Positions 1-45,389 are shown, counted from the stretch's first letter. The stretch: DNA of 64,000 nt from a virus (IMGVR_UViG_3300009702_000001:1-64000); one strand, 5' to 3'. The notes: a model not told the origin generated them from the letters alone. Numbers and translations are program-made.

Positions 1-1629
1 CATTTCGGTAGGAGCAACAACTTGGGCATTTTGCGCCAACGCAAACGTAAGGGAATAAGGTTGGTCAAGGTTGATATTTTCGGGAAGTGGTCCCAATTCC
101 CCTTCAAAAATATCTTCCATTAAAGTGTTAGCCCGGCGCGGAGTCATTGCTCCGGACTTTTCAGCGGCAACCATAGCCTTTGACAAAACTTCATTGTCCG
201 TAATATTCGGAGTCCGGGACCGGAAGAAATGCCAACGGATTTTTTGGTCAAGCATAATCCGGTTCATTTGGGAATCAACAACTTCCCTTTCCGGATTGAA
301 AATCTGTTCATCCCCCATACGCAAAGACGCTTGCGCGGTTGCCCGGGTATAATCTTCGGCGCGTCCAATCAACAAAGGAGGAAGCCGGAATGCTTGCCTT
401 ACTTTGTTCTGATTGTTTGCATCATAGCTTTGGAACATTTCGTCCGTTTTTTGACTCTTAGGTTCATACATGGAAAGTTTTGCATTGGTCATTTGACCGG
501 CAAAATTTTCCGCGTCCCCGTTTTCCGCTTCCAAGATTACAATCTTGGAATAGTTGGGGTCCGAACCAACTTGACTTTCAATCAACTCGGTAAGACGTTC
601 AACGCTTGCCGGGGTCAACGCTCCGTTTTCAACCATGATGAACATGGAAGGAACGTAATTGTTGGACAGGGTAAAGAAGTTGACTTCTTCGGAACGTCTT
701 GACCCGATGATTGAAACGTAACGGCCGATATACCGAGGAATACCATAAACAGAACGCGCCGAATAAATCTTGAAATGGATGATTTCGGTTGCTTCATCCG
801 TAACCGCGTCAACGTTCCCAACCTTGCCCGTCTTTTTGTTGATGGTTCGGGGGTCCCCAAATTCCTTGAAATAGACTCCGGGTTGACCTTTGGAATTCAA
901 TTGGACGAAACGCCGGAAGCGGCGCATTTTTTCAATCTGTTTAATCTGATAGTCATCTTCCGGTGAAATAACCGGAACAGTGTAGGGGGTTGCTTCCGCG
1001 TCCAATTTGGTAAGACGCATCCGATGGGAAGCAACATGATTGATTTCTATAATGACCCCTGCCGAGTCCCGGACAATTTCCCAATATCCGTTCCCGGTCA
1101 ATTCAAGGTCCCGGCGCATTTGCTTCCGGGTTTGGATGAAAGAAGTTTCGGGACAAAGAACGCCCAACCAACCTTGAAGTTTGATTGCTTCAAGGTCAAT
1201 TTCTGATTGATGTTTGTTCTTTGCGTCTTCTTCTAGCTTGCGGGGTCTGAATGTATTTCCGAAACCTTCAATGTTGGTAACCATTGAATCAATACATTCC
1301 CGCAAGATGTTTGATTCTTCTTCCAACAAAACCAAAGCGAATTGGTCATAAGGGGCTTCAATTATATCCTTATATGTTGCGTTGCTATCTTCAAGGGGGG
1401 TAATGTTGGACGTTGCTTGCCCTTGTTGAGTCTGCCGTTTGATAGCTTCCCGCGCCGGCTCGGGCGCCGGTTCCGAGCCCCGTTCCGTTCGGGCTTTCGC
1501 TTGCGCGGCCCTTTTACTTTGAACGGAAATAACCCGGACGTTCATTCTTTGGTTAGAAACCGAACCATCCTTACCAACGATTTCCGCGTTGAAAGGTGTA
1601 TTGACTACTTGTGCGCTCGGTTCATTCAT
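1..1629 (-). CDS. phage portal protein (partial; 3' end beyond window edge, 543 codons visible)
   Basis: Hand translation: ATG at 1629 (MNEPSAQVVNTPF...) stays open to nt 1, so there is no in-window stop and it is absent from the ORF track. Portal-like stretches LTGNGYWEIVRD and YSARSVYGIPRYIGR. Lies just downstream of the large terminase. Confidence 0.8.
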   Translation of the reverse strand, partial: MNEPSAQVVNTPFNAEIVGKDGSVSNQRMNVRVISVQSKRAAQAKARTERGSEPAPEPAREAIKRQTQQGQATSNITPLEDSNATYKDIIEAPYDQFALVLLEEESNILRECIDSMVTNIEGFGNTFRPRKLEEDAKNKHQSEIDLEAIKLQGWLGVLCPETSFIQTRKQMRRDLELTGNGYWEIVRDSAGVIIEINHVASHRMRLTKLDAEATPYTVPVISPEDDYQIKQIEKMRRFRRFVQLNSKGQPGVYFKEFGDPRTINKKTGKVGNVDAVTDEATEIIHFKIYSARSVYGIPRYIGRYVSIIGSRRSEEVNFFTLSNNYVPSMFIMVENGALTPASVERLTELIESQVGSDPNYSKIVILEAENGDAENFAGQMTNAKLSMYEPKSQKTDEMFQSYDANNQNKVRQAFRLPPLLIGRAEDYTRATAQASLRMGDEQIFNPEREVVDSQMNRIMLDQKIRWHFFRSRTPNITDNEVLSKAMVAAEKSGAMTPRRANTLMEDIFEGELGPLPENINLDQPYSLTFALAQNAQVVAPTEM

Positions 1630-2082: not shown

Positions 2083-3558
2083 TCAATGACGTTTGCGCCA
2101 ACGTTTGCGGCCAGGAGTTATCAATCCGGGTTCGCTTCCCCGAGCCCGTTTCTTTTTCTTCCGTTTCAACGCGGTTCGGATAGCAATATCCAATGCGTCA
2201 AGTAAATCCTTGTAAGCCCCGTTCGGGAAATTTAGCAACTGTTCTTCCAACTCCCCGTTTTTCTCTGAAGTATGGAAGAAAATTTCCCCCCGTTCAAACC
2301 GAACCGAAAGCCGGTCCATACGGGTATTTTTATCTTTGTCCGTAAAGACGGGAATTGCCGGAAGGTGACTAGTCCGCTTTTCCGCTTTCAGGCTTTGAAC
2401 CTTGCTTGCCTGGAATGCGTTTGCTTCAATTCCGATTGCAATGGGTTCATGGGTATTATAATGCTTTTCAATTTGGTCATCTTGTTGTTTCAGGGACAAC
2501 TTGTTGTGATAGTAATCAAGGATATAAATGTTGAACGTCCGGGGGTCAATGCCGATGGTTACGATTGCGAATTTTGCATTTTCCTTTTTCTGTCCAATCG
2601 CAAGGTCAACCCCGGTGAATACAACTAACTTCTTCGGGAATGAATCAACGTAACGGAAAAACTTATCATCAAAAACGTAACCCTGAATTCCGGCCGCGTT
2701 TTGATTCATTTGGGCATTGAAATAAATGCGCCCCATTGATTCCCGCAAGGCATGTAATTCGTCCGTTGTCCAACGCTCGGGAAGGTTGGTCGAATCATCC
2801 TTGGGCTTGATTGCGGGAATGATTTGCGCCGAATCCTTGAAGTATGGGTCATGGGTAAGAAGATGGTTGTATAAATCATCCGGATGATACCGTGTTCCCA
2901 ATACCCTGATTTCGGTATTGGCATCCGTAACGCAAGGCATAAGCGTTGTATAAAACCATTGTTTAACTTTATGCCGGCCTCCCTCGGTTCGGGCGTTCTT
3001 CAAGGTAACCAAGTCATCACAGTAAATAATATCAAAATGCGCGGACGTAATGCTTGAATCAACGCCCGTTGTCATAACGGTATTTTCTTTGCGCGGAAGC
3101 GTTCTTCCCGCTACGTTGATAGCATCTTCATTCCAAATTTCCCCTTGTTGGTTTCCGAAGATTTCAACCGTTCGGGGATGCGTCAAGCATTCCTTCAATT
3201 CGGAAAGGAACCCTTGGGCATGGGTTACGATATCGGACGCAAACAAAATTCGGATATTGGGGTCCCGAAGGATTTTGACAAGGGCAGACCCAACGGTCCC
3301 AACGGTTGACTTCCCGCAACCCCGAGGGGCAAGTTGAAGGGTCTTGGTATGCTGGCATTGATGCCAAATTAGGATTTCATGGATTGGGTCAAAGACATAG
3401 CCCAATTCTTCAAGTAATAGGTCATACCTTCCTTCATTCATTACCGAGTCATAAACAACCCGATTCCTGATATCCCGCAATTGACGGAATGAACGCAAAT
3501 TTTCATTCCGCTTTTGACGTACCGAAAGATTCTTATGTTTGGCAACGCCTAACTGCAC
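2083..3558 (-). CDS. terL: terminase large subunit
   Basis: 491 aa with a GTG start. Walker A-like LAPRGCGKST, Walker B-like FDIIYCDD, C-terminal RNaseH-like nuclease part (GVDLAIG..., GIEANAFQ). Confidence 0.9.
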   Translation of the reverse strand: MQLGVAKHKNLSVRQKRNENLRSFRQLRDIRNRVVYDSVMNEGRYDLLLEELGYVFDPIHEILIWHQCQHTKTLQLAPRGCGKSTVGTVGSALVKILRDPNIRILFASDIVTHAQGFLSELKECLTHPRTVEIFGNQQGEIWNEDAINVAGRTLPRKENTVMTTGVDSSITSAHFDIIYCDDLVTLKNARTEGGRHKVKQWFYTTLMPCVTDANTEIRVLGTRYHPDDLYNHLLTHDPYFKDSAQIIPAIKPKDDSTNLPERWTTDELHALRESMGRIYFNAQMNQNAAGIQGYVFDDKFFRYVDSFPKKLVVFTGVDLAIGQKKENAKFAIVTIGIDPRTFNIYILDYYHNKLSLKQQDDQIEKHYNTHEPIAIGIEANAFQASKVQSLKAEKRTSHLPAIPVFTDKDKNTRMDRLSVRFERGEIFFHTSEKNGELEEQLLNFPNGAYKDLLDALDIAIRTALKRKKKKRARGSEPGLITPGRKRWRKRH

Positions 3559-4371: not shown

Positions 4372-4773
4372 TTACTGCCCCAATACGTTGGACCAAAGGG
4401 TCCCGCGCCGGACCATTTCAACCGGGAAGAAATCCCCGGCCGGCTCGGGCGCCGCGTCCCCTTCGGAACGTGCAACGGGTTCATCGGCCGGAACCCATTG
4501 ACGCCGGACCTTTTCGATTTTTGAAAAGGAAACGTTGCCGTCTTCATCGGTCGCAATCGCGGCCCGGGTATAAACACGGGACTTGTGATTGTAGACAACA
4601 ACCGATGAAAGGGAAACTTCTTCGGGGAAGATATCAAACTTTTCTTCCGCGCCGAAAAGTTGGAAGTTTCGCATGATTGATTCATATACCGCGTCAAGGA
4701 AACGCGGCAAGTCAACGCTTGCGTCTTCCATCGTTTGCCGTTCAACTTGAACCTTGATTTTCTCACTATTCAT
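4372..4773 (-). CDS. hypothetical protein
   Basis: ORF track 4372..4857. The internal ATG at 4773 (MNSEKIKV...) follows GAAAGG. The longer N-terminus reads into the intergenic region. Confidence 0.55.
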   Translation of the reverse strand: MNSEKIKVQVERQTMEDASVDLPRFLDAVYESIMRNFQLFGAEEKFDIFPEEVSLSSVVVYNHKSRVYTRAAIATDEDGNVSFSKIEKVRRQWVPADEPVARSEGDAAPEPAGDFFPVEMVRRGTLWSNVLGQ

Positions 4774-5040
4774 CGTTGACCTTTCGGGCGCCGGACCTTC
4801 GGGGATATGGCGCGTTTTTCTCGCATTTGATTCAGACCTTGCTTCAAGGGATAGCATACGGGGAAAAGCGTATCAAACAATTCCCCTGATACTTCCGGGC
4901 GAAACGTGCTAAAGTAAACAGATTCCCGGCCGGAAATCCTAGCCTATGAAGCTAGACCCTAGTGATTCCGATACCATAAGAAAATGTTACGGTTCCGGGT
5001 AGTTTCTTACAATATCCCATTACCGAAGGAAAGGAAGCCA

Positions 5041-5385
5041 ATGCCTAATAAACCAGAAAAACCGGAAGTTGTTACCCATATACTTGGGTTGTTTCACCTT
5101 GATAAACTATGCCCAAAATGCCAGGGACCAATTGAAATCAATAACACGGTTTCATGCAATGCTTGTGATTTGAAGTTGCATTTGAAGGTTCATATTGACT
5201 TTATTGAAACGGGTTGTATGAACATTAGGTATTGCTCGGGACTCGGAAGAAAACCTATTTTGAACCAACGGCAACAACAACTTCAACAAGCCGAATCAAA
5301 ACCGAAGAAGAAACCCGCTCCGAAAAAGCGCAAGACAACCCCGAAGAAAAAAGCAACTCCAAAGAAACGAAAGAAACAAAAATGA
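5041..5385 (+). CDS. zinc-ribbon protein with lysine-rich (histone H1-like) tail
   Basis: ATG at 5041 follows GAAGGAAAGGAAG. Contains CPKC...CNAC and the tail KPKKKPAPKKRKTTPKKKATPKKRKKQK. Confidence 0.55.
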   Translation: MPNKPEKPEVVTHILGLFHLDKLCPKCQGPIEINNTVSCNACDLKLHLKVHIDFIETGCMNIRYCSGLGRKPILNQRQQQLQQAESKPKKKPAPKKRKTTPKKKATPKKRKKQK

Positions 5386-5558
5386 AAACCGCGTTGCGCG
5401 TCTTGGGTATCCTTATAACTGCCGGGGTCATTTGCCTACCGTCCCCGGTCTATGCCCGAGCAATAACAGGGGGACACAAAATGCTTGACGCGGCAATTGT
5501 ATCCTTGTTTTATTTGCTCGGGGTTCTAATCATCGGACATTTGATTCCAAAGGACTGA
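5382..5558 (+). CDS. small membrane protein (58 aa, two hydrophobic segments)
   Basis: ATGA overlap with the upstream stop. Sequence MKTALRVLGILITAGVICLPSP...SLFYLLGVLIIGHLI. Confidence 0.5.
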   Translation: MKTALRVLGILITAGVICLPSPVYARAITGGHKMLDAAIVSLFYLLGVLIIGHLIPKD

Positions 5559-5565
5559 AACGAAA

Positions 5566-6126
5566 ATGGGAAAAACGGCAATCTTCATTGATGGGGCATA
5601 CCTTGACAAAATCCTTGAATACGGATTTGGCCGAACCCGAATTGACTTTGAACGTTTCGTTGCGGAAATCGGGGACGGTTCAATGCTCCGGTCATATTAC
5701 TATCATTGTCGCCCATATGTTTCCCAGGAACCAACGCCGGAAGAAACACAACGCTTTGAAGCAAAAGAACGCTTCTTCCGAGCCCTGGGAAATATCCCCC
5801 GCTTTCAAGTCCGTTTGGGCCGACTTGTGTTCCGAGGAAACAACGAAAACGGGCGCCCAATTTTCATTCAAAAACTGGTTGACGTTATGCTTTCAGTGGA
5901 TATGGTCCAACTATCCGCAACGCGCCAAATCAACCGCGTCATTCTTGTTGCCGGGGATAATGATTTTCTTCCGGCAATAGAGGCAACCAAGCGGCTTGGG
6001 GTATTGGTTTCGTTGTTGCATGGACCCCCTATCAACGGCTTTTCTTCAAGTCACAATGACCTTTGGCAAGCGTCCGATGAACGTAAGGAAATCGGACAAC
6101 AACTGATTCAACGGATAAAACGATGA
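5566..6126 (+). CDS. NYN-domain (LabA/DUF88-like) putative ribonuclease
   Basis: TAIFIDGAYL, KLVDVMLSVDM and ILVAGDNDFLPAIE reproduce the acidic-residue pattern of NYN/PIN-like nucleases. Confidence 0.8.
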   Translation: MGKTAIFIDGAYLDKILEYGFGRTRIDFERFVAEIGDGSMLRSYYYHCRPYVSQEPTPEETQRFEAKERFFRALGNIPRFQVRLGRLVFRGNNENGRPIFIQKLVDVMLSVDMVQLSATRQINRVILVAGDNDFLPAIEATKRLGVLVSLLHGPPINGFSSSHNDLWQASDERKEIGQQLIQRIKR

Positions 6127-6151
6127 AGAAGAACGGGGGGGACCGGCAAGA

Positions 6152-6772
6152 ATGAAGGAATGCGAAATTTGTGGGGACAACGATTGGTTAATAGTTGACT
6201 CCAATTGGGTAAGGTGTAACCGTTGCGGCCGGCTTGAATCTCGGACCCCGAAACGGGTTTGTATATGTTGCGGAAAAACCATTGGAAAATATGCGAAAGC
6301 AACACAGCAAACTTGTATAAAATGCAAAGAAGCAAACGTCCCCTTTGAATCACAAATCCCGTGCAAAACTCCGGCTTGCGGTAATAGGTTGGGTAAAAGG
6401 GCAGACCCAAGCGGATTTTGCCGTCAATGCTTGCGGGAAAAGGATTATTGGGAAGTTGAAGACGGGCATTTATGGAAACCATTTGCCCTGTCCATGATGG
6501 GAAAACCAACCGGTCGAAACGTTCTATTGAAGCGACTTCGGAAACAGTATCCAGACATAACCGAGAACACGTTGTTCAATTGGTTGTTGCGGCAAACAAA
6601 AGCCGGGGTCTTGAAGCGGGTTGGTCATGGGAAATACCAAGCGTTGACCAACGGGAGCCCGAGCCCGAGCCCGAGCCCCGAGGAAAGCCCAACGTCAATT
6701 CGGCTTGACCCGGACTGTTCCTCGGGTTGGGGGCCGTTCCGCTTGATTCGGAATCGGGCTCCCGATGATTGA
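6152..6772 (+). CDS. multi-zinc-ribbon protein with C-terminal winged-helix-like domain
   Basis: CEICG..CNRCG, CICCG..CIKCK and CRQC motifs, then LFNWLLRQTKAGVLKRVGHGKYQAL (wHTH signature G-x-L-x-R-V-x-x-G-x-Y) and an SPSPSPSP tail. Confidence 0.6.
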   Translation: MKECEICGDNDWLIVDSNWVRCNRCGRLESRTPKRVCICCGKTIGKYAKATQQTCIKCKEANVPFESQIPCKTPACGNRLGKRADPSGFCRQCLREKDYWEVEDGHLWKPFALSMMGKPTGRNVLLKRLRKQYPDITENTLFNWLLRQTKAGVLKRVGHGKYQALTNGSPSPSPSPEESPTSIRLDPDCSSGWGPFRLIRNRAPDD

Positions 6773-7016
6773 CAAAAAATCCCGCAACTAATTGATAATA
6801 TATAATAATCACTTGCATTTCATTCCGAATCATCCCGAAAAAGATTCCAGGAAATCAGGGAAACAATCGGTAAATATTACGTTTTCCCTGAATAGTCTTA
6901 CAATTGGGCCGGTTTGTGACAATTTGCCCCCCAGGTTTATCCGGCGCCGCTCGGACAAAACGGAAACGCCCGGAACCCCGAACCCCAACTTTTTCGGGGA
7001 CTGCCGAAAAAAAATG

Positions 7017-7046
7017 TTTACAAGACCCGGGGAATTCCGGTAATAC
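7017..7046 (+). promoter_or_regulatory. sigma70-like promoter (TTTACA N18 TAATAC)
   Basis: Read directly, about 64 nt upstream of ATG 7110. The spacer contains the near-palindrome CCGGGGAATTCCGG. Confidence 0.45.
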
Positions 7047-7109
7047 TGTCCCGTTGGCAACCAATGGGCAATCAAGCCCGAAAAACAGAACCGAAAGGAA
7101 GGCTTCATT

Positions 7110-7508
7110 ATGGCAAAGAAAATCAAAGGCGAAAGCAATCCCGGCGCCGGAGTTTCCACGGGACACAAGCGCAAGCGCAAAGCCGGCAAGGATATTGTCC
7201 CCCGGTTGAAGGTCATTGACGGGGCAAGCTATATCCTTATGGCTTCTTCCCGGGGCAAGTCGCTTCAAACCGCGTTGCTTTGGGCTCCGGCGCCGAAGGA
7301 ACCGAAACGCCCCTTCCTGTTCCTTTTTGACCTTCCGGACGGTCAAGGCGGAACCATGATGATTTCCGTCCCCATGGAAACGGTCCAAGCCCAAGCGGTT
7401 TATGCCGCGCATCCCCGGCGCGTCCCCAAGGATGAAATGCCCCCCGAGTGTCCGCTTGAAGATATCCCCGAAGAAGAACCGGCCCCCGAGCCGGCCCCCA
7501 AGGGTTAG
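7110..7508 (+). CDS. hypothetical protein (basic N-terminus, acidic PEP tail)
   Basis: 132-aa ORF. GAAAGGAAGG lies 7 nt upstream of the ATG and a terminator follows. Confidence 0.55.
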   Translation: MAKKIKGESNPGAGVSTGHKRKRKAGKDIVPRLKVIDGASYILMASSRGKSLQTALLWAPAPKEPKRPFLFLFDLPDGQGGTMMISVPMETVQAQAVYAAHPRRVPKDEMPPECPLEDIPEEEPAPEPAPKG

Positions 7509-7518
7509 TCAACCCCAA

Positions 7519-7546
7519 AGCCCCCAGGGGAGCCCTGGGGGCTTTT
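7519..7546 (+). terminator. intrinsic terminator (AGCCCCCAGGG GAG CCCTGGGGGCT TTT)
   Basis: 11-bp GC stem plus T-run, 10 nt after the stop of 7110..7508. Confidence 0.6.
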
Positions 7547-7579
7547 CCCTGCCCGATACCCCAATCATACCCCGTCAAT

Positions 7580-7604
7580 AAAAAAAGGCGCCCCTGGGGG
7601 CGCC
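7580..7604 (-). terminator. intrinsic terminator (GGCGCCCC..GGGGCGCC + T7 on minus strand)
   Basis: GC stem followed by a T-run on the minus strand, 27 nt after the stop of 7631..7882. Convergent with the plus-strand terminator. Confidence 0.6.
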
Positions 7605-7630
7605 CATGCCTTCCCAGGGCATTACTAGGG

Positions 7631-7882
7631 TCAACCGTCTTCAATGTCCCGAGAAACGCGCCCAACTTCCCGGAGCGCATCCCGCATTGACGTAAGGGCC
7701 GGCTTCAACGGTTCCAATTCGCTTTGACTAGCGATATAGGCGTCAAGGGCCGCTTCAACAAATTCCCCAACGGAAACCCGCGTTGCCCGAGCGCAAAATC
7801 CGGCCGCTGTATGATAATACTCTTGAACCCAAAGGGCAGACTTCCGGGGAACGGTTGCGCCCCCTTTCAATTTCTTCGGCAT
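7631..7882 (-). CDS. ribbon-helix-helix-like small DNA-binding protein
   Basis: Internal ATG at 7882 (MPKKLKGGATVPRK...) follows GGAAGGGAAG. SALWVQEYYHTAAGFCARATRVSVGEFVEAAL resembles a CopG/Arc RHH. Confidence 0.5.
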   Translation of the reverse strand: MPKKLKGGATVPRKSALWVQEYYHTAAGFCARATRVSVGEFVEAALDAYIASQSELEPLKPALTSMRDALREVGRVSRDIEDG

Positions 7883-7898
7883 GGTTCTTCCCTTCCTA

Positions 7899-8138
7899 TC
7901 AGTTTGAAGATTCAACGTCCCAACGCATTGAAATCGGGTTGAAATAGATTCGGCAGGGACAACAAGCATTGAACCGGACTTCCGGGATAATTTGACTGTT
8001 CCCATTCCGCCATTTTTCAACGTCCCTTTCAACGGACTTCCAAAGGGGGTCCGAAATGAAAAATTCCCCGTTCCGCTCGGACAGGTCCAAACGGACGGTT
8101 CGGGTTCCGAATTTCAATTGAATGAATGATGCTTCCAT
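7899..8138 (-). CDS. hypothetical protein
   Basis: 79-aa ORF. AACAACGGGAG SD region and a consensus promoter lie upstream. Confidence 0.5.
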   Translation of the reverse strand: MEASFIQLKFGTRTVRLDLSERNGEFFISDPLWKSVERDVEKWRNGNSQIIPEVRFNACCPCRIYFNPISMRWDVESSN

Positions 8139-8167
8139 TGTTCTGTTTCTCCCGTTGTTGCCCTAGA

Positions 8168-8196
8168 AATATAACCTAGATTTCCAGCATAGTCAA
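8168..8196 (-). promoter_or_regulatory. sigma70-like promoter TTGACT N17 TATATT
   Basis: Read on the minus strand: -35 at 8196..8191, -10 at 8173..8168. Confidence 0.55.
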
Positions 8197-8243
8197 GGGG
8201 CAATTCGGGAAGGGTTCCCGAATAGGGGATGTAAGTTGTCCAA

Positions 8244-11205: not shown

Positions 11206-11537
11206 TTCCCGGAATCCTTCAAGCGCATATGCCCGGTTACAATCAACGCGCCTTCAAGCCTACCCTGAAGCCGGACGCATCGGGTCATCAACTCGGCAAT
11301 AGTCAACCGACATTGTTTCAACGCTTCTTCAAGTTGCATCTTGTCCGCTTTAAGGGAATGAACCTTCCCCCGGGTTTCCCGGTGTTCATCCTTTTCTTCT
11401 TCAAAGCGTCGGACCCAATTGTCCCTTTCCCGTTGTTTGAAGCAAGCCGCTTCCCGTTTTTCCTGCAACATCTTTTGAAGTTGCGCGTTGACAGCTTCCA
11501 ACTCCGAAACCCGTTCTTCCAATTCCTGCTTTGTCAT
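11202..11537 (-). CDS. coiled-coil protein
   Basis: 111 aa with heptad-like, charge-rich sequence (ELEERVSELEAVNAQLQKMLQEKRE...). Confidence 0.6.
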   Translation of the reverse strand: MTKQELEERVSELEAVNAQLQKMLQEKREAACFKQRERDNWVRRFEEEKDEHRETRGKVHSLKADKMQLEEALKQCRLTIAELMTRCVRLQGRLEGALIVTGHMRLKDSGK

Positions 11538-11623
11538 ACCATTCCCTTCCGTTGCTTTGACTCGACAATCAATCCCGCAATGTAAAGTTTTGTTTCGGGT
11601 GGTATGATATCAAAATATTTCAT
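11534..11623 (-). CDS. micro-ORF (29 aa, MKYFDIIPPETKLYIAGLIVESKQRKGMV)
   Basis: Below the ORF-track cutoff. Its stop overlaps the next ATG (GTATGACA). Confidence 0.35.
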   Translation of the reverse strand: MKYFDIIPPETKLYIAGLIVESKQRKGMV

Positions 11624-11631
11624 TGCGAAAT

Positions 11632-11733
11632 TCAGGTAAATCGGATAAACCAATTCATCCGGTTGTAAAACGGAAGCAAACTCCCGTTTTTCATCTTCTT
11701 CCCAAAGATGACTTCCGCTTCTTCAATCTTCAT
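11632..11733 (-). CDS. micro-ORF (33 aa, MKIEEAEVIFGKKMKNGSLLPFYNRMNWFIRFT)
   Basis: Its start overlaps the end of the upstream 45-aa ORF (ATGAAGATTGA). Confidence 0.35.
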   Translation of the reverse strand: MKIEEAEVIFGKKMKNGSLLPFYNRMNWFIRFT

Positions 11734-11860
11734 TGCTGTTACTCCGAAACCACCTTGACGGAAACCCGCGCCCCCTTCCATCCGGCTTGTCCCCCCGCAA
11801 GGTGGATTTCATAACAGGATTGTTGCAGTCTTTGAACGCGCATTTGGGGCGCCTATTCAT
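11723..11860 (-). CDS. small protein (45 aa, MNRRPKCAFKDCNNPV...)
   Basis: Strong SD GGAGGGAAGG 7 nt upstream of ATG 11860. First gene after the 1.85-kb ORF-free block. Confidence 0.5.
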   Translation of the reverse strand: MNRRPKCAFKDCNNPVMKSTLRGDKPDGRGRGFPSRWFRSNSNED

Positions 11861-12849
11861 CGGGACCTTCCCTCCAGTGTAATGGGCTCGGGGGCCAGCT
11901 CGGACGTTCCCATGGACGCGCCTAAAAAGGTTCCTTTCAATCCGAGGAAAACAACCGGCCCCCGAGCCCATGACCCAACCTTACCCGGTCCGCTTCCCCT
12001 CAGTAACAGTTTTTTTCCCTTATGGAAGGGTTGACCCGGGAAGCCCTTTTCAGGTCAACGGTCATAGAAGCCTAAGGGGTTTCGGCCGGCTCCCCGTAGG
12101 GGCTCGGACGTTCCCCCTAGTATTCTTCTTTTACCGTTGGCGGTTGAAGGTCCGGCAGGGTTCCCCGAGCAAAGCGAGGGGGAAGGGCAACGGAACCCGT
12201 TGGGACCCCAGGGACGGCCGTTGAAGCGGGGGGGGGCTCGGGTCCCAACGCTTACCAATTTAGCAGGATTTTTCAGGGGGACCCCTGGGATTAACGGTCA
12301 AGTGTAGGTTGATGTAGGTGCGACTTCCCCAAAATGATGCGCGCATCCCTTGCGGGCGAACCCCACGGGGGGGGTAGGCACACCACCCACACTATCCTAC
12401 ACCCCCCCACCCCCTCCTACATATGGGTATATTGGCTCTGGTGTAGGTATAGGTAGGTACCAGGTTCCCTTGTTCAATCATCCCATTGTCACCCCGGAAG
12501 ACTTCCTTTCAATCTTGGTTATGGTCCGTAGATATGCCCTTGGGTTGACTGGAGTCTTTTTCTTCCCATGGTTGCCCCCATGTTTGGGACTCGACTTGTT
12601 CCCCCCGGCTTCTTTCCGGCCTTTATCACGCCAGACAGTAACAAGATTGCTTCAACTTCTCCTCATTATTTATCAACCGAAGTCCTGATTTTCTTCTTCA
12701 ATTCTAGTTATGTACCCATCGTCAATATAATAATTGTTTTTTTTCTTCCTTCCCTTGAATTGTTCCTCTATGTGTGCGCCGGCATCCCCCGAAGAAAAGC
12801 GATACATAGGAAAGGAATCTGTCCCGCTACCGAACCCAACCGGGACAAC

Positions 12850-12930
12850 GGCTGGAGCTCCTCGGGAGCTCGGCAGTCCCGAAGGGCTGGAGCTCCTCGG
12901 AAGCTCGGCAGTCACGAAGGGCTGGAGCCC
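12850..12930. repeat. 35-bp tandem repeat, about 2.3 copies (GGCTGGAGCTCCTCGGRAGCTCGGCAGTCMCGAAG)
   Basis: Units at 12850-12884, 12885-12919 and partial 12920-12930, with 2 mismatches. The unit length is not a multiple of 3. Confidence 0.85.
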
Positions 12931-13522
12931 TAGCAATCCCTTCCCGGGCTCTGGAATAATACACGGGGGGCATGTAGGCAAATGTAGGGAAAGCGGCGAC
13001 AAAAATCAGAGGAAAAAGGTCCGAAAAAAAATGGCTTGCCTATCAACCCGTCCCCTTCCGTTTCTCACATTAGGAACCCCAGGTCAACAGGCAACCGGCA
13101 GGATAGAGGGCCAAGGGGGCCGGCATGGGTCTGGGGGAAGCAATGGGGGAACGTGGGGGCTCGGGGGTTGATGGAGGGCAATGACGGGCAGGGGGGACGG
13201 TATCGGGCTTGCTATGGAGCTCCTCTTGTCTTTCCCCTTGCTTCTTCTTTAATCTGTTTCCGTTTTGATTGCTAACGCCTTGATATTGAAAGGTTGTTGC
13301 GCTTTTATGTAAGACTTTCCCGTTGATTCCCTTGGGGCTTTCCGTGTTCTGCTTCAATTGTGAGAAACGATAGGATACCGCTAAAATCCTGTAAGTAATT
13401 GGAATGATGAAGGGAAGGGTTGCAAAAACCCGATGGAAGGCGAAATGTAAGACAAACGGCAGGGATACCTGAAAAATCCTTGAAGGAAAAGGAATCATTG
13501 AACAATCGGTTGCAATCGGTTC

Positions 13523-16319: not shown

Positions 16320-17027
16320 CTAACGAGCCAGTAAACGGCCAACGGCTGATTTTGTCCAAGGCTTACCTCTATTAGTGTAACCAATGGCGTTCATTCCCCC
16401 GGCAATACTTCGCACAGAGTAGCCTTCCCGCTTGAAGTACCTTATACGGTCAAGACAAGCCATTTCACCAGGACAGTCTTCAAGAGTCTTGCCGTTCGAG
16501 CCCAACCGCTTCCCAAACGGAACACGTCCGACCCTTTCCCCCCGGGACTTCTTTACACCCATTCCAGCCTTGGTACGTTCTGATATCAAAGTCCGTTCCA
16601 TTTCGGCAAATGCGGCGGACATTGTAAGAAACATTTTCCCCATTGCCGAAGAAGTGTCAAGGGCATTCCCCCCCATATCAACAATATGGAGAAAAATCCC
16701 GCTTCGTTCCCAGGATTCCACGTTGACCAAACAGTCAAGAGCATTGCGGAAGGCCCGGTCAAGTTTCAGGATGATAACCGCGCCGGCGCCAGACCGCTTC
16801 AAGGCGTCAAGCATATCCCGACCGGCCGGCCGCTTAGCAATGGGCTTCCCGGCCGAAACGCCTTCATCCCGGAAGGTCCCAACAATTTTCAAACCTTTCA
16901 TCTTGCAATAGGCTTCACAACGCTCCGTTTGGTCTTGAAGCCCGAGTCCGGAAACAGCTTGCTTTTCCGACGAAACCCTAATATAAACAACGGCTTTGTT
17001 CTGGTCACGTTTGATTTTCTTTGCCAT
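16320..17027 (-). CDS. small serine recombinase (resolvase/invertase family)
   Basis: AVVYIRVSSEKQ (catalytic Ser region), ILKLDRAFRN, FAEMERTLISERTKAG and a C-terminal HTH (GYSVRSIAGGMNAIG...). Confidence 0.85.
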   Translation of the reverse strand: MAKKIKRDQNKAVVYIRVSSEKQAVSGLGLQDQTERCEAYCKMKGLKIVGTFRDEGVSAGKPIAKRPAGRDMLDALKRSGAGAVIILKLDRAFRNALDCLVNVESWERSGIFLHIVDMGGNALDTSSAMGKMFLTMSAAFAEMERTLISERTKAGMGVKKSRGERVGRVPFGKRLGSNGKTLEDCPGEMACLDRIRYFKREGYSVRSIAGGMNAIGYTNRGKPWTKSAVGRLLAR

Positions 17028-17282: not shown

Positions 17283-17480
17283 CTAATCAACTTCTGTGTG
17301 AAGGTCTGACTGGATACTCCAAACGGTTCGGGCGAAACGTCGAACAGTCTTTCCTTTACGGGTAAGAATGACGGAAAGATGACCGTGAAACGTAATAGTG
17401 TTTCCAGACTCGGAAATCTTTTTGATACCATAAATAATCATTCCGTCTTGAGAACCATTGACCTTATAGGTTTTTGTCAT
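17283..17480 (-). CDS. small orphan protein (65 aa from the SD-led ATG)
   Basis: GGAG lies 9 nt upstream of ATG 17480, with a consensus promoter upstream. Confidence 0.55.
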   Translation of the reverse strand: MTKTYKVNGSQDGMIIYGIKKISESGNTITFHGHLSVILTRKGKTVRRFARTVWSIQSDLHTEVD

Positions 17481-17535
17481 TTTCTTTGCTCCGTTTTCGG
17501 GGTTGGTATTTCGTTTCGCGTTGTTCATGTATATA

Positions 17536-17564
17536 TATATAGGGGCAGACCCCTAGATTGTCAA
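17536..17564 (-). promoter_or_regulatory. strong sigma70-like promoter TTGACA N17 TATATA
   Basis: -35 at 17564..17559 and -10 at 17541..17536. ATG 17528 lies 7 nt after the -10. Confidence 0.65.
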
Positions 17565-17692
17565 CAGGTTTTTCAAAAAAAAGTAATCTTTTTTTCAAGT
17601 CCCCGAAACAACAACGCTTTTTCAACAAATGTAAGAACAGATTTCGGACGGAAAGGGGCTCGGAAGGTAGGTTCCGGGAACTCCGGGCAAAG

Positions 17693-17722
17693 AAAAAGCC
17701 CCGAGGGGGCTTCCCTCGGGGC
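17693..17722 (-). terminator. intrinsic terminator (GCCCCGAGGG AAGCC CCCTCGGGGC + T-run)
   Basis: 10-bp stem plus TTTTTCT on the minus strand, 22 nt after the stop of 17745..18248. Confidence 0.65.
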
Positions 17723-17744
17723 TCGGGTTGGGCTCGGGGCCGGC

Positions 17745-18248
17745 TTAGGCTACCGAGTAACGGGAATCCCGCTTGCTTCCGGTCCGCTTGACGGTCCCGG
17801 CCGAAACCAAGTCCCCCAGGGCTCGGGCAACGGGGCGCCGGTCCAAACCGGCCGCGTCCGCGATTTCCCGAGCGGACATGGGCTTGCCCTTGGACCCGGA
17901 CAGAACCTTCATTGCGGCTTTCCGGGCTTCTTCGGAAGCCCCCCGCTTGCGCCGCGCCTTGCCCTTGCTCGGAGCCGCGTTCCCCTGAAGGGTCCCCAGG
18001 GTCATGGACCGGAGCAACGCGCCCCAACCCTCGGAATCGGCCGCGTCAAGGGCTTCCGCCAAGGTCATACGCTTGGGCATGGACCTGAACCGCTCCCCGG
18101 CAAACGCCTTGATTGCCGCTTCCTGTCCCCCCGCTTGGGTCAAAAGGAAATTGTAAAGGGCATCCCCGTTGACGGGGGCCGCGTCCGCGTTCTTCTTCGG
18201 GGCCGTCTTGGTCTTCTTCGGGCTCGGCTTGTTGGTCTTCTTCGGCAT
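17745..18248 (-). CDS. DNA-binding protein: basic N-terminus plus C-terminal winged-helix
   Basis: MPKKTNKPSPKKTKTAPKK..., with C-terminal MSAREIADAAGLDRRPVARALGDLVSAGTVKRTG (MarR/ArsR-like wHTH). Confidence 0.6.
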   Translation of the reverse strand: MPKKTNKPSPKKTKTAPKKNADAAPVNGDALYNFLLTQAGGQEAAIKAFAGERFRSMPKRMTLAEALDAADSEGWGALLRSMTLGTLQGNAAPSKGKARRKRGASEEARKAAMKVLSGSKGKPMSAREIADAAGLDRRPVARALGDLVSAGTVKRTGSKRDSRYSVA

Positions 18249-18377
18249 GGTTTTTTTCCTTCCGTTGTTCGGGAGCGTTCAACGCTCCGGGTTGTTGCCG
18301 CTTGAACCTTCCGTTTACCGTTGTCCTTTATCTGTTCCCGGAAGTCAAGCGTAAAATGAAAAAAGTTGTTCCCGCAA

Positions 18378-26773: not shown

Positions 26774-26845
26774 TGACCCCAACGGGATTTGAACCCGTAT
26801 CGCCGGCGTGAAAGGCCAGTGTCCTAACCGTTGAACGATGGGGCC
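26774..26845 (-). tRNA. tRNA-Glu (anticodon TTC)
   Basis: Folded by hand: 7-bp acceptor GGCCCCA/TGGGGTC, anticodon stem CTGGC/GCCGG with loop CTTTCAC, T-arm ACGGG TTCAAAT CCCGT. 72 nt. Confidence 0.9.
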
Positions 26846-27001
26846 GAAAGTCCCGACTTGCCCCGCGTCTTGGCATCAACAAGACGGAAGGTTCCCTTTG
26901 ATGCGTCCCGAGCCGGGCAACGGGAAAGGGTCTAGGGGTTCATAAATTTAGCATGGGCTTCCTTCCTTTCGTTGTTGCGGATTACTACCATCCCCACACT
27001 A

Positions 27002-27072
27002 TTCGGGGGCCGGGATTTGAACCCGGGATATCGGAGTCAAAGTCCGAGGTTTTACCGCTAGACTACCCCCGA
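27002..27072 (-). tRNA. tRNA-Gln (anticodon TTG)
   Basis: Acceptor TCGGGGG/CCCCCGA (U1-A72), anticodon stem TCGGA/TCCGA with loop CTTTGAC, T-arm CCGGG TTCAAAT CCCGG. 71 nt, with one D-stem mismatch. Confidence 0.85.
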
Positions 27073-27076
27073 GCGT

Positions 27077-27160
27077 TGCCGGGTCCGGGAGTCGAACCCG
27101 GAAGGTATTTCTACCACTTAATTTTGAGTCAAGTGCGTTTACCGATTTCGCCAACCCGGC
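27077..27160 (-). tRNA. tRNA-Leu (anticodon CAA), class II with long variable arm
   Basis: Acceptor GCCGGGT/ACCCGGC, anticodon loop CTCAAAA, long variable arm, T-arm with GGTTCGACTCC. 84 nt. Confidence 0.9.
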
Positions 27161-40791: not shown

Positions 40792-41388
40792 TTACTTGTC
40801 GCGGCTTCCGTGCCTTTGTTCAACGAAAAGCCCCTTGCGTTTCTGAATCAACTTGCCGTAACTTTGCAAGCTGGAAAGTCTACCTTCATAGGCTTCAAAC
40901 AATCGCCTTGCCGCGTCCCGCAATCGTTGGGACTTCCGCAAAACTTCCCGCGCCGCTTTATGCTCGGGGATATGTCCGGCAACCCAACGTTCAACGTCCG
41001 CAGTATAAACCCCGCCTTCCCATTTTTTATTCTTCTTCAACGTTGCGATTTCTTGCCGCGCCCGAGTAACCCAAATTCCCATCAATGCTTCATAGTCATC
41101 TTTGACCCGTTCATAATCCTCGGAAGCAACCGCGTAAATAAATCCGGCAAGGCGCATATCTTCCGGCGCGTCCCCAATCAGTTGACGCAAAACAGATTCC
41201 CCGGAAGTTTTCAAGTCCGTTTGTAATCGCTCCAATAATTTGGGGTAGACTTCCGCTATTGCCAAATGATTCAATTCATCATTCAAAACACTGTAACGGG
41301 TAGGATGGGGAGGGGCAATGGGCGCCGGCTTTTCCGGCGCGTCTTGTTGCTTCAACTTCTTCCGAATCTTTTTCAGTTTCTTGGGCAT
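40792..41388 (-). CDS. hypothetical protein
   Basis: ATG 41388 (MPKKLKKIRKK...) overlaps the dnaE TGA by 1 nt. Confidence 0.6.
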   Translation of the reverse strand: MPKKLKKIRKKLKQQDAPEKPAPIAPPHPTRYSVLNDELNHLAIAEVYPKLLERLQTDLKTSGESVLRQLIGDAPEDMRLAGFIYAVASEDYERVKDDYEALMGIWVTRARQEIATLKKNKKWEGGVYTADVERWVAGHIPEHKAAREVLRKSQRLRDAARRLFEAYEGRLSSLQSYGKLIQKRKGLFVEQRHGSRDK

Positions 41389-45290: not shown

Positions 45291-45389
45291 AGCGTCCCTG
45301 TAATGCCCATGACGGGCCGCAAGGGGCCGGGGGTCACAATCCCCCGGCCCCGGGGTCAAACGCTTCCCAGGGCTCCCCTGGGGGACGTG

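What the first reader, a model, noticed from the sequence alone, without database searches (positions are those of the whole stretch)
4984..7546. Opposite-strand accessory island: NYN nuclease next to a zinc-ribbon/wHTH protein, with its own terminator and at least one internal promoter
This is the only multi-gene plus-strand block in 64 kb. It is wedged between the packaging genes and the early region, and ends in a plus-strand terminator (7519-7546) facing a minus-strand terminator. It encodes five products. (1) A zinc-ribbon protein with a histone-like K-rich tail. (2) A 58-aa membrane peptide coupled by ATGA. (3) A NYN/LabA-like putative RNase (5566..6126). (4) A protein with three zinc-ribbon-like Cys pairs and a C-terminal wHTH (6152..6772), whose G-x-L-x-R-V-x-x-G-x-Y signature I associate with AbiEi-type antitoxin/regulator domains. 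(5) A further orphan behind its own promoter (7017-7046). A nuclease paired with a wHTH regulator in a moron-like, oppositely oriented cassette is the layout expected of a toxin-antitoxin or abortive-infection/superinfection-exclusion module, or of a counter-defence RNase. I know of no described system with exactly this gene set, but I cannot search databases here.
Basis: partly seen in the sequence, partly recalled or inferred. Interest (0 to 1): 0.65.

Follow-up and report, generated by a model that had tools for sequence, protein, structure and literature searches.

The report
Conserved phage NYN nuclease operon
The plus-strand block is real, but it is a conserved core operon of an uncultivated phage lineage, in which an intact NYN-family nuclease is always followed by a new triple-zinc-ribbon/winged-helix protein, and it is most likely an RNA-decay and regulation module, not a mobile toxin-antitoxin island.

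Summary
Five plus-strand ORFs sit at 5041-7508. They have their own sigma-70-like promoters and end in a conserved pair of facing terminators. The second large gene is a true NYN/LabA-like nuclease (Pfam 53 bits against a cutoff of 24) with all five catalytic Asp invariant. The next gene encodes three 4-Cys zinc ribbons plus a generic winged helix.

The block is not a moron. About 12 related metagenomic phage genomes were examined (ORF4 identity 31-73%). Every one carries NYN immediately upstream of an ORF4 homologue (gap -4 to +25 nt), in the same place, divergent from the terminase/portal module. ORF1 and ORF5 homologues are usually present too.

The ORF4 family is tiny: 20 hits among 1.84 billion representatives. 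In every contig fetched it sits beside NYN. In contrast, the 80 cellular NYN homologues examined (of at least 469 found, many phyla) and the other viral ones lack any ORF1/2/4/5 homologue, and the cellular ones share no conserved neighbour. That argues against a toxin that needs an antitoxin. AbiE membership fails on every testable criterion.

Best reading (about 0.4): a phage RNA-decay/processing nuclease with a dedicated nucleic-acid-binding partner, in a regulated operon. Function is inferred, not shown.

The parts
4853..4880 (-). Candidate sigma-70-like promoter of the minus-strand packaging/late operon (TTGTTT-16-TATGCT).
   Evidence: The hexamers are conserved and the spacer varies among window, L001, L002 and L084 (read on the minus strand). 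Inferred from the sequence; not scored by the scan tool.
4907..4915 (+). Candidate extended -10 promoter element (TGcTAAAGT). The equivalents are TGATATAGT in L001 and TGATATAAT in L002.
   Evidence: Alignment of the divergent intergenic region. Inferred.
4938..4962 (.). CTAG-rich operator-like element CCTAGCCTATGAAGCTAGACCCTAG.
   Evidence: Nearly identical in window and L001, and largely conserved in L002, while the flanks diverge. It is unique in the window. CTAG is about 4-fold depleted genome-wide (65 found, 247 expected). CTAG-N9-CTAG occurs only here and at 8163, and at the same two homologous places in L001.
4985..5013 (+). Candidate promoter of the plus-strand operon (TGTTAC-17-TACAAT), about 28 nt upstream of the ORF1 start.
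   Evidence: Hexamers are conserved in window, L001 and L002. Sequence. Inferred.
5041..5385 (+). ORF1, 114 aa: a single CxxC...CxxC zinc ribbon, a helix, and a Lys-rich tail.
   Evidence: C24, C27, C39 and C42 are invariant in 8 homologues. The tail varies in length and is missing in the L104 and L106 homologues. The gene is called as 114 aa in the ENA copy. No significant family hit. The tail contains a 39-nt tandem duplication at 5297-5374.
5382..5558 (+). ORF2, 58 aa: a hydrophobic peptide (signal-like segment plus TM) that overlaps the ORF1 stop by ATGA.
   Evidence: Sequence. Homologues of 57-59% identity occur in L001 and L002. L102 has a non-homologous hydrophobic 63-aa ORF in the same slot. 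L084, L100 and L105 have none.
5566..6126 (+). NYN/LabA-like (COG1432-type) nuclease, 186 aa.
   Evidence: PF01936 gives 53.4 bits against a cutoff of 24.2. D9, D106, D112, D131 and D133 are invariant in 25 sequences. There are more than 223 homologues. The phage copies form one clade in an NJ tree.
6152..6772 (+). ORF4, 206 aa: three 4-Cys zinc ribbons (residues 4-93), a winged helix (about 108-164) and a disordered tail ending in PDD. It defines a new family.
   Evidence: Foldseek's best matches are generic DNA-binding wHTH regulators (Fur, PerR, PadR, BlaI, Rok) at E >= 0.02. One uncharacterised phage protein matches at 4e-4.
6876..6904 (+). Second promoter-like element in the 337-bp ORF4-ORF5 spacer (ATTACG-17-TACAAT). 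It resembles the 4985-5013 element.
   Evidence: Conserved block in window, L003, L001 and L002. Inferred from reading the sequence.
7017..7046 (+). Promoter-like TTTACA-N18-TAATAC upstream of ORF5.
   Evidence: It occurs once in the window, against 0.02 expected. Hexamers are conserved and the spacer varies in L003, L001 and L002.
7110..7508 (+). ORF5, 132 aa: basic N-terminus, conserved core (GKDIVPRLKVIDG ... QAQAVYAAHPRRVP ... MPPECPLE) and an acidic/Pro-rich tail. Fold unknown.
   Evidence: Homologues occur in all related genomes examined except L105, and are more conserved than ORF4 in most of them. No family hits. Single-sequence AF2 failed at pLDDT 46.6.
7517..7549 (+). Intrinsic terminator of the plus-strand operon: a 13-bp perfect stem, a 3-nt loop, then UUUU.
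   Evidence: (I24). Conserved in L003 and L001.
7579..7605 (-). Facing intrinsic terminator of the upstream minus-strand unit (GGGCGCCCC...GGGGCGCC plus T7).
   Evidence: Conserved, with a compensatory stem variant in L002.
7631..7882 (-). Convergent 83-aa gene (weak ribbon-helix-helix resemblance), co-conserved with the block. A candidate regulator.
   Evidence: Pfam RHH_1 gives only E=0.1. Homologues are found in L003/L107, L110, L084 and L002. Gene call.
8163..8196 (-). Strong minus-strand promoter (TTGACT-17-TATATT, 10 of 12 matches) whose -10 is bracketed by the second CTAG-N9-CTAG motif.

Best explanation
The block is a conserved, separately transcribed core operon of a previously uncultivated tailed-phage lineage. 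It is not a mobile cassette.

**Proposed mechanism**
- The enzymatic component is an NYN-family, metal-dependent endonuclease with an intact five-Asp active site. By analogy with every characterised NYN domain, it most likely cuts single-stranded RNA with little intrinsic specificity.
- ORF4 is its dedicated partner. It is encoded 25 nt downstream here, and overlaps NYN by 4 nt in some relatives. It consists of three zinc ribbons plus a DNA-binding-type winged helix. I infer that it either directs the nuclease to particular nucleic acids or sites, or couples its activity to transcription control of the adjacent promoters.
- The small zinc-ribbon protein with a basic tail (ORF1) and ORF5 are further subunits or regulators.
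- The operon is read from host-type promoters. It diverges from the start of the packaging/structural operon and ends in a bidirectional terminator pair.
- A CTAG-N9-CTAG operator is shared with the promoter of the neighbouring small (RHH-like) gene unit. This suggests the two units are co-regulated.
- The likely role in infection is phage-directed RNA turnover: host mRNA shut-off, or the early-to-late switch and transcript processing.

**Shown:** gene content, intact catalytic residues, strict NYN-ORF4 linkage, synteny, and conserved cis elements.

**Inferred:** the RNA substrate, physical NYN-ORF4 interaction, expression timing, and which protein binds the operator.
For: **NYN identity and active site.**

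**Linkage and synteny.** NYN lies immediately upstream of an ORF4 homologue, divergent from the terS/terL/portal/S78-protease module, in window/L099, L001, L002, L003, L084, L100, L101-103, L104, L105, L106, L109 and L110. ORF4 identity runs down to 31%. Gaps are -4 to +25 nt.

**ORF4 family size.** An exhaustive HMM search of 1.84 billion representatives found only 20 hits, 12 of them full length.

**Shared ancestry.** The phage NYNs form one clade. ORF1 and ORF5 are co-conserved down to 25-36% identity.

**ORF4 fold.** The wHTH resembles DNA-binding regulators.

**Cis elements.** Conserved promoters, operator and terminators.

**Literature on NYN domains.** They are nonspecific Mn-dependent ssRNases whose specificity comes from partners:
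- KHNYN with the ZAP zinc fingers (PMC11670115).
- MARF1 NYN with LOTUS domains (PMC6294520).
- The CRISPR-associated NYN (bioRxiv 10.1101/2024.04.08.588522).
- The predicted NYN-OST-HTH RNA-degradation system (PMC5499597).
Against: - There is no experimental or transcript data. The substrate, RNA or DNA, is unknown.
- All co-occurrence lies within one phage lineage with conserved synteny. Adjacency could therefore reflect shared ancestry, not functional coupling.
- L085 carries an NYN of the same clade without ORF4. Cellular homologues also work alone. ORF4 is therefore not an obligatory cofactor of the enzyme.
- The ORF4 wHTH looks like a dsDNA-binding transcription-factor domain, not an RNA-binding one.
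- No interaction model could be computed.
- ORF5 has no assignable fold.
Confidence: 0.4

Rival explanations
1. One reading: a toxin-antitoxin, abortive-infection or superinfection-exclusion cassette. NYN is the toxin and the ZnR/wHTH protein (AbiEi-like) is its antitoxin and autorepressor.
For: - A PIN-like nuclease is tightly coupled to a wHTH protein.
- There are weak AbiEi wHTH similarities: Pfam AbiEi_4 E=0.076 for the window protein, with the best family member at 5.9e-4; PADLOC AbiEi E=0.0035.
- The block has its own promoter and terminator.
- The ORF5 profile has a non-significant YefM-antitoxin hit at E=0.13.
Against: - None of the 80 cellular NYN homologues examined (45-56% identity, of at least 469 found) has an ORF1/2/4/5 homologue nearby, and they share no conserved neighbour. 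L085 has NYN without ORF4.
- The module is a fixed, syntenic core feature of the phage lineage. It is not patchy or mobile.
- The order is nuclease first.
- No AbiEii nucleotidyltransferase is present.
- The AbiEi matches are below the cutoff and cover only the wing of the wHTH.
- The tested HTH+NYN candidate HEC-09 gave no phage defence (bioRxiv 10.1101/2024.01.29.577857).
- The genome looks lytic: Pol III alpha, DnaB, primase, RecA-like and SbcCD-like genes are present, and no tyrosine or large serine integrase was found in the 64 kb.
Confidence: 0.12
2. A counter-defence nuclease. The phage NYN destroys a host immune RNA or nucleotide signal, such as crRNA, retron or ToxI-type RNAs, or defence mRNAs. 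ORF4 and ORF1 supply target recognition.
For: - The nuclease is intact and is kept under strong conservation in all members of the lineage: 41-88% identity, against 31-73% for ORF4.
- Host-type promoters are compatible with early expression.
- NYN enzymes act on CRISPR RNAs in at least one system (bioRxiv 10.1101/2024.04.08.588522).
Against: - There is no similarity to any known anti-defence protein, and no anti-defence library was available to test.
- Anti-defence genes are usually variable accessory genes. This one is invariant and syntenic.
- The host and its defences are unknown.
Confidence: 0.15
3. There is no functional pairing. ORF4, and/or the RHH-like protein, is simply the transcription regulator of the divergent late/packaging promoter and of its own operon. 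NYN is an independent nuclease that happens to sit in the same transcription unit.
For: - The ORF4 wHTH is structurally closest to dsDNA-binding repressors such as Fur, PerR, PadR and BlaI.
- The operon abuts the start of the packaging operon and carries a conserved operator shared with a neighbouring promoter.
- NYN occurs without ORF4 elsewhere.
Against: - In every contig fetched, ORF4 sits beside NYN, with overlapping or nearly abutting reading frames. This is more than loose synteny would require.
- The CTAG operator is conserved only in the closest relatives, whereas the NYN-ORF4 pair extends much further.
Confidence: 0.2
4. A DNA-level function. The PIN-like NYN nuclease acts on phage or host DNA, with the zinc-ribbon/wHTH protein as its DNA-targeting subunit. 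Possible roles are host chromosome degradation, replication-intermediate processing, or help with packaging next to the terminase genes.
For: - The module is located right next to the terS/terL/portal genes in every genome.
- The PIN-like superfamily includes DNA flap nucleases (PMC5499597).
- ORF4 has a DNA-binding-type wHTH.
Against: - All biochemically characterised NYN-family members are RNases (PMC11670115, PMC6294520, bioRxiv 10.1101/2024.04.08.588522).
- The phage already encodes a FEN-type 5'-3' exonuclease, RuvC-like and SbcCD-like proteins, and a complete terminase nuclease domain.
Confidence: 0.08

Closest known systems
LabA-like NYN nucleases (Pfam PF01936, COG1432 cluster of the PIN-like superfamily; structure 2qip)
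   Same: The NYN gene is a bona fide member. It scores above the Pfam cutoff, has the conserved acidic residues, is about 186 aa and is a standalone domain. It has hundreds of cellular homologues of 45-56% identity.
   Different: This copy belongs to a phage-specific clade. It is embedded in a fixed four-to-five-gene operon with partners not seen next to any cellular homologue. Sequence similarity to the only solved relative found is marginal (2qip, E=0.15). According to the 2017 classification, no COG1432-cluster member had been studied as a nuclease (PMC5499597).
NYN + OST-HTH/LOTUS architecture (bacterial LabA-type proteins, eukaryotic MARF1)
   Same: An NYN nuclease is combined with a winged-helix nucleic-acid-binding module. 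It was predicted to form a self-contained RNA-degradation system in which the winged helix recruits substrates (PMC5499597, PMC6294520).
   Different: Here the winged helix is on a separate polypeptide and is preceded by three zinc ribbons. It gives no OST-HTH hit: the only Pfam hit for the window protein is AbiEi_4 at E=0.076, and OST-HTH is not among the 25 family-wide matches displayed. Its structural neighbours are dsDNA-binding regulators.
ZAP-KHNYN (vertebrate zinc-finger antiviral protein plus NYN endonuclease)
   Same: The logic matches: a nonspecific NYN ssRNase obtains target specificity from a separate multi-zinc-finger nucleic-acid-binding protein (PMC11670115).
   Different: There is no homology of the zinc modules (C4 ribbons against CCCH fingers). 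The system is on the virus side, not the host side. The interaction is not shown. This is an analogy only.
AbiE (AbiEi/AbiEii) type IV toxin-antitoxin / abortive infection system
   Same: The wing of the ORF4 wHTH resembles AbiEi_4 weakly.
   Different: The matches are below the cutoff. There is no AbiEi C-terminal domain. The partner is an NYN nuclease and not a DUF1814 nucleotidyltransferase. The gene order is reversed. The module is a conserved core of a phage, not a patchy defence island.
Phage-encoded mRNA endonucleases used for temporal control (e.g. T4 RegB; my own knowledge)
   Same: The proposed role is the same: a small phage endoribonuclease, made from host-type promoters, that reshapes the mRNA pool during infection.
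   Different: RegB has a different fold (RelE/barnase-like, not PIN-like/NYN) and no zinc-ribbon/wHTH partner. The role here is inferred, not shown.

Membership tests
NYN / LabA-like nuclease (PF01936, COG1432 cluster) | Match to the family HMM above the curated cutoff. | tested here: met
   53.4 bits against a gathering score of 24.2, E=5.3e-14, covering residues 3-151. Every listed homologue carries PF01936.
NYN / LabA-like nuclease (PF01936, COG1432 cluster) | Conserved acidic metal-binding residues of the PIN-like active site. | tested here: met
   D9, D106, D112, D131 and D133 are invariant in a 25-sequence alignment. The GDxDF and QKxVD motifs are present. PMC5499597 describes four conserved acidic residues as defining.
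NYN / LabA-like nuclease (PF01936, COG1432 cluster) | Metal-dependent (ribo)nuclease activity. | not testable with these tools
   Needs an in vitro assay with wild type and a D9A/D131A mutant.
AbiE (AbiEi antitoxin / AbiEii toxin) | AbiEi N-terminal wHTH family match above the cutoff. | tested here: not met
   AbiEi_4 gives 13.6 bits against a cutoff of 25, covering only residues 145-163. Among 18 family members, 4 match, with a best E of 5.9e-4. PADLOC AbiEi gives E=0.0035.
AbiE (AbiEi antitoxin / AbiEii toxin) | Partner toxin is an AbiEii/DUF1814 nucleotidyltransferase encoded downstream of the antitoxin. | tested here: not met
   The partner is an NYN nuclease encoded upstream. No nucleotidyltransferase hit appears in any of the five ORFs.
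Type II toxin-antitoxin with PIN-like toxin (VapBC-like logic) | Toxin homologues are regularly accompanied by a cognate antitoxin gene. | tested here: not met
   None of the 80 fetched cellular NYN loci has a homologue of ORF1, 2, 4 or 5. In the 63 of them whose NYN ORF could be placed, no neighbour cluster recurs in more than 4 loci. Viral locus L085 has NYN without ORF4.
Type II toxin-antitoxin with PIN-like toxin (VapBC-like logic) | Toxicity of the nuclease alone and rescue by the partner. | not testable with these tools
   Requires expression experiments.
Moron / accessory island of a phage genome | Presence/absence polymorphism among otherwise syntenic relatives. | tested here: not met
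   The block is present at the same junction in all of about 12 related genomes, down to 31% ORF4 identity.
Moron / accessory island of a phage genome | Autonomous promoter and terminator. | tested here: met
   Conserved promoter-like elements and a conserved terminator hairpin.
Moron / accessory island of a phage genome | Atypical base composition or codon usage. | tested here: inconclusive
   GC of 0.43-0.50 lies within the window's 0.43-0.61 range. Codon log-odds are somewhat lower than for core genes, but the own frame is always the best.
NYN-OST-HTH (LOTUS) RNA-degradation proteins | OST-HTH/LOTUS domain associated with the NYN domain. | tested here: not met
   The only Pfam hit for the window's ORF4 is AbiEi_4. 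OST-HTH is not among the 25 of 37 family-wide matches displayed. The domains are on separate proteins.
Known anti-phage defence systems (PADLOC-DB v2) | Full-length match of the components to a defence-system model set. | tested here: not met
   Only partial matches over the catalytic motif were found: PDLC01154 NYN at E=2.7e-8 (residues 106-150 on profile positions 232-274 of 310) and HEC-09 at E=0.0012. ORF1, ORF2 and ORF5 gave no hits.

The most novel reading that the evidence does not exclude
ORF4, possibly together with ORF1 and ORF5, may be a dedicated targeting subunit. It would convert an otherwise nonspecific NYN ribonuclease into a sequence- or site-directed phage endonuclease complex. 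That would be a virus-side bacterial counterpart of the ZAP-KHNYN principle. The complex would be used for selective destruction of host or defence RNAs, or for programmed processing of phage transcripts, and would be co-regulated with the late-gene switch through the shared CTAG operator.
Probability: 0.2. Interest if true: 0.7.

Novelty: new variant of a known kind. Interest (0 to 1): 0.42.

Why it matters
As of the 2017 PIN-superfamily classification (PMC5499597), bacterial LabA-like NYN proteins were a very large family with no studied nuclease function. Here one clade sits in a fixed, co-transcribed context with a partner family that, in every contig fetched, is found only beside it. That gives a concrete and testable handle on what these enzymes do and how they are targeted or controlled.

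The work also defines a new protein family (3 x zinc ribbon + wHTH) and a signature module of a phage lineage with no cultured relative (TerL at most 27% identical to any deposited phage).

If the partner directs the nuclease, this would be a compact programmable-like RNase pair used by a virus. If not, the result is still a clean annotation that removes a false 'defence island' call.

Tried and rejected
- **Nucleotide search against 50,697 phage records:** no match. tblastn of ORF4 found none. NYN hits were at most 27% identical, and TerL at most 27%.
- **Rfam on 4500-8200 (E-value mode) and the whole window (gathering):** only the three tRNAs. Nothing in or around the block.
- **ORF5 leader as a structured RNA:** the RNAalifold consensus is only -1.5 kcal/mol with many broken pairs. 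Rejected.
- **Inverted repeat flanking the block (4948-4969 / 7618-7639, 77%):** considered as a sign of an invertible segment because a small serine recombinase is encoded at 16320-17027. Rejected. The right arm is not conserved in L003 or L001, and all assemblies show one orientation.
- **ORF5 structure from a single sequence:** pLDDT 46.6, unusable. No fold search was run.
- **ORF5 and ORF4 profiles against PDB sequences:** nothing significant. Best hits were YefM at E=0.13 and an R2 zinc region at E=0.011.
- **Foldseek of the ORF4 model:** only generic wHTH matches in PDB and BFVD.
- **The search for related loci with the 18-sequence ORF4 alignment:** failed because there was no conserved stretch. 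The last homologous-protein run added only two contigs.
- **Exact look-up of the 308-aa + ORF at 17379-18305:** not on record. Codon statistics and an overlapping minus-strand HTH ORF indicate it is spurious.
- **Host identification:** not achieved.

Full report
**1. What is there**

The window is a rotated copy of an approximately 87-kb metagenomic phage genome (ENA ERZ27249683 k141_545879, 87,436 bp). Almost all genes are on the minus strand:
- large terminase at 2083-3558, with the portal running off the left end;
- DnaE-type Pol III alpha, DnaB, primase, a RecA-like protein, SbcCD-like proteins, a FEN-type exonuclease, UDG, RuvC, an amidase and three tRNAs.

Between 4984 and 7546 there are five plus-strand ORFs. 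Each scores best in its own reading frame of six on a codon-usage test.

ORF1 most probably starts at 5041, not 4984. The independent gene call is 114 aa. Homologues align from that Met. A GGAAAGGAAG ribosome-binding site precedes it.

**2. The five products**

| Product | Coordinates | Size | Main features |
|---|---|---|---|
| ORF1 | 5041-5385 | 114 aa | One invariant CxxC...CxxC zinc ribbon and a Lys-rich tail. The tail varies among relatives and is partly built from a 39-nt tandem duplication. |
| ORF2 | 5382-5558 | 58 aa | Hydrophobic peptide overlapping ORF1 by ATGA. Conserved in the two closest full-length relatives. Replaced by an unrelated hydrophobic ORF in L102 and absent elsewhere. 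|
| NYN | 5566-6126 | 186 aa | True NYN/LabA-like protein (PF01936, 53.4 bits against a cutoff of 24.2). D9, D106, D112, D131 and D133 are invariant in 25 homologues, so it is not catalytically degenerate. |
| ORF4 | 6152-6772 | 206 aa | 12 invariant Cys forming three zinc ribbons, then a winged helix (AF2 pLDDT above 80 over residues 110-160; mean 70), then a disordered tail. |
| ORF5 | 7110-7508 | 132 aa | Strongly conserved, with no detectable family or reliable model. |

For ORF4, Foldseek finds only generic DNA-binding wHTH regulators (Fur, PerR, PadR, HxlR, BlaI, Rok) at E >= 0.02. It scores 13.6 bits against a cutoff of 25 and covers the wing only. Four of 18 family members match, with a best E of 5.9e-4.

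**3. Signals**

*Terminators.* The plus-strand terminator is a perfect 13-bp hairpin at 7517-7545 followed by U's (dG -26 kcal/mol, z = -2.7). It faces a canonical minus-strand terminator at 7605-7586. Both are conserved in relatives, and the minus-strand stem shows compensatory changes.

*Internal promoter.* TTTACA-N18-TAATAC at 7017-7046 occurs once in the 64 kb, against 0.02 expected. Its hexamers are conserved while the spacer drifts in three relatives.

*Further candidate elements.* By the same footprinting logic I read these from the alignments. They are inferences from sequence, not tool calls:
- a second promoter-like element in the 337-bp ORF4-ORF5 spacer (6876-6904);
- a promoter just upstream of ORF1 (TGTTAC-17-TACAAT, 4985-5013);
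- an extended -10 at 4907-4915;
- a minus-strand promoter for the packaging operon (4880-4853).

*Operator.* Between these elements lies a 25-bp CTAG-rich element (4938-4962). It is nearly identical in window and L001, and largely conserved in L002. CTAG is about four-fold depleted in the window (65 found, 247 expected). The motif CTAG-N9-CTAG occurs only twice in the window. One copy is here. The other overlaps the -10 of a strong minus-strand promoter (8196-8168) that drives the small genes converging on the block, including an 83-aa weakly RHH-like protein. The same two locations carry it in L001, and L003 (which does not reach the divergent region) has the promoter-side copy. This looks like a shared operator. 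Which protein binds it is unknown.

**4. Comparative evidence**

*ORF4 family size.* ORF4 has only five other hits in the 5.8-billion-protein index. An exhaustive profile search of 1.84 billion representatives gave 20 hits, 12 of them full length.

*Linkage.* Every contig I could fetch for this family shows the same picture. An NYN gene sits immediately upstream of the ORF4 homologue, with a gap of -4 to +25 nt. It lies on the strand opposite to, and divergent from, a small-ORFs/terminase/portal/S78-protease module. The contigs are L001, L002, L003, L084, L099, L100, L101-103, L104, L105, L106, L109 and L110. ORF4 identity ranges from 73% down to 31%.

*Other members.* ORF1-like genes are present in most of these genomes, though L100 has none. 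ORF5-like genes are present in all except L105. The block is therefore a core, vertically inherited module of a phage lineage. It is not a moron.

*No cultured relative.* TerL is at most 27% identical to any of 50,697 deposited phages. ORF4 has no hit there, and NYN is at most 27% identical.

*The asymmetry.* The NYN family is very large (more than 223 clusters; at least 469 genome hits across many phyla). None of the 80 cellular loci fetched, and none of the other 14 viral loci, has a homologue of ORF1, ORF2, ORF4 or ORF5. The cellular loci share no neighbour family. The other viral contexts are heterogeneous.

*Phylogeny.* In an NJ tree of 77 NYN sequences, the nine ORF4-linked phage NYNs form one clade. 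That clade also contains L085, a 105-kb viral contig that has NYN without ORF4.

*What follows.* In every contig fetched, ORF4 occurs only with NYN, but NYN does not need ORF4. This is what one expects of an accessory, targeting or regulatory partner. It is the opposite of what one expects if NYN were a toxin requiring neutralisation. The caveat is that all ORF4 observations come from one lineage with conserved synteny, so they are not independent.

**5. Mechanism**

Characterised NYN domains are Mn/Mg-dependent single-strand RNases with little sequence preference. They obtain specificity from partners:
- KHNYN from the ZAP zinc fingers (PMC11670115);
- MARF1 from LOTUS/OST-HTH winged helices (PMC6294520);
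- the CRISPR-associated NYN, presumably from the Cmr context in which it trims crRNA intermediates (bioRxiv 10.1101/2024.04.08.588522).

The bacterial NYN-OST-HTH fusion was predicted to be a standalone RNA-degradation system (PMC5499597).

On that basis I commit to the following reading at about 0.4 confidence. The operon encodes a phage RNA-turnover/processing nuclease with a dedicated zinc-ribbon/winged-helix partner. It is expressed from host-type promoters and wired, through the CTAG operator, to the neighbouring small-gene unit and the start of the packaging operon. It is plausibly used for host mRNA shut-off or the early-to-late transition.

Rival readings:
- ORF4 is just the local transcription factor and NYN is independent (0.2).
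- A counter-defence RNase (0.15).
- A DNA-level nuclease (0.08).

**6. Comparison and membership**

- NYN is a member of PF01936/COG1432. The HMM and active-site criteria were tested and met.
- The pair is not AbiE. The HMM match is below the cutoff, the toxin family is wrong, and the gene order is wrong.
- It is not VapBC-like in distribution.
- It is not an NYN-OST-HTH protein. No OST-HTH hit was seen, and the domains are on separate polypeptides.
- It does not match any PADLOC system beyond the catalytic motif.
- A related HTH+NYN defence candidate (HEC-09) showed no defence when tested (bioRxiv 10.1101/2024.01.29.577857).
- Functionally it resembles the 'nonspecific NYN plus nucleic-acid-binding adaptor' theme.

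**7. Verdict**

I rate it a new variant of a known kind, namely an NYN nuclease with a novel, lineage-restricted partner family in a conserved phage operon. Interest is moderate at 0.42. It gives a testable entry point into a large and, as of the 2017 survey, functionally unstudied nuclease family, and into an uncultured phage group. There is no functional evidence yet, and nothing categorically unexpected.

Noticed in passing
window 16320-17027 (-): A small serine recombinase of 235 aa: YIRVSSEKQ motif, Pfam Resolvase E=1.9e-35, PHROG 'integrase' and 'DNA invertase' hits. It is too short for a large serine integrase. It could be a resolvase or invertase, and it leaves the phage's lifestyle (strictly lytic, plasmid-like or invertible element) open. 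L106 has a 140-aa resolvase about 1.2 kb from its NYN block.
   Followed up: partly
window 4938-4962 and 8163-8179: CTAG is about 4-fold under-represented in the window (65 found, 247 expected). The motif CTAG-N9-CTAG nevertheless occurs exactly twice: once in the divergent promoter region of the block, and once over the -10 of the promoter of the neighbouring small-gene unit. The positions are conserved in L001, and L003 has the promoter-side copy. It is probably a shared operator. The binding protein is unknown.
   Followed up: partly
window 6773-7109: The ORF4-ORF5 spacer is unusually long at 337 bp (289-335 bp in the closer relatives, shorter or absent in distant ones). It holds two conserved promoter-like elements and a hairpin at about 6977-7000 that shows two compensatory pairs between window and L003. 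A small RNA or regulatory leader is possible. There is no Rfam hit.
   Followed up: partly
window 11537-13035: About 1.5 kb has no called gene in the ENA copy of the genome. GC is locally high (0.58-0.60), GC skew reverses, and coding potential is poor in all six frames. It could be a replication origin, a non-coding RNA region or highly atypical genes.
   Followed up: no
L085 5989-6573 (IMGVR_UViG_3300022700_000179, 105.7 kb): This NYN gene belongs to the same phage clade (61% identity) but sits in a different, larger viral genome with no homologue of ORF1, ORF4 or ORF5 nearby. It is a natural 'NYN without partner' comparison.
   Followed up: partly
window 5297-5374: The Lys-rich tail of ORF1 is encoded by a 39-nt tandem duplication (74% identical copies). 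The tail length varies among relatives and the tail is missing in the L104 and L106 homologues, so it is evolutionarily labile.
   Followed up: yes
window 41388-45359 (-) and other minus-strand genes: The phage encodes its own DnaE-type Pol III alpha (PHP, DNA_pol3_alpha, finger and HHH_6 domains). It also encodes DnaB, DnaG-type primase, a RecA-like protein, SbcCD-like proteins, UDG and RuvC, and two NUMOD4/HNH_3 homing-endonuclease-like genes. This is an unusually complete replisome for an approximately 87-kb genome.
   Followed up: no
window 26774-27160 (-): A cluster of three tRNA genes: Glu-TTC, Gln-TTG and Leu-CAA.
   Followed up: no
window 1-1628 (-): The portal gene (584 aa in the ENA copy) runs off the left end of the window. 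The ORF lists therefore show only spurious plus-strand ORFs there, such as 229-702.
   Followed up: yes
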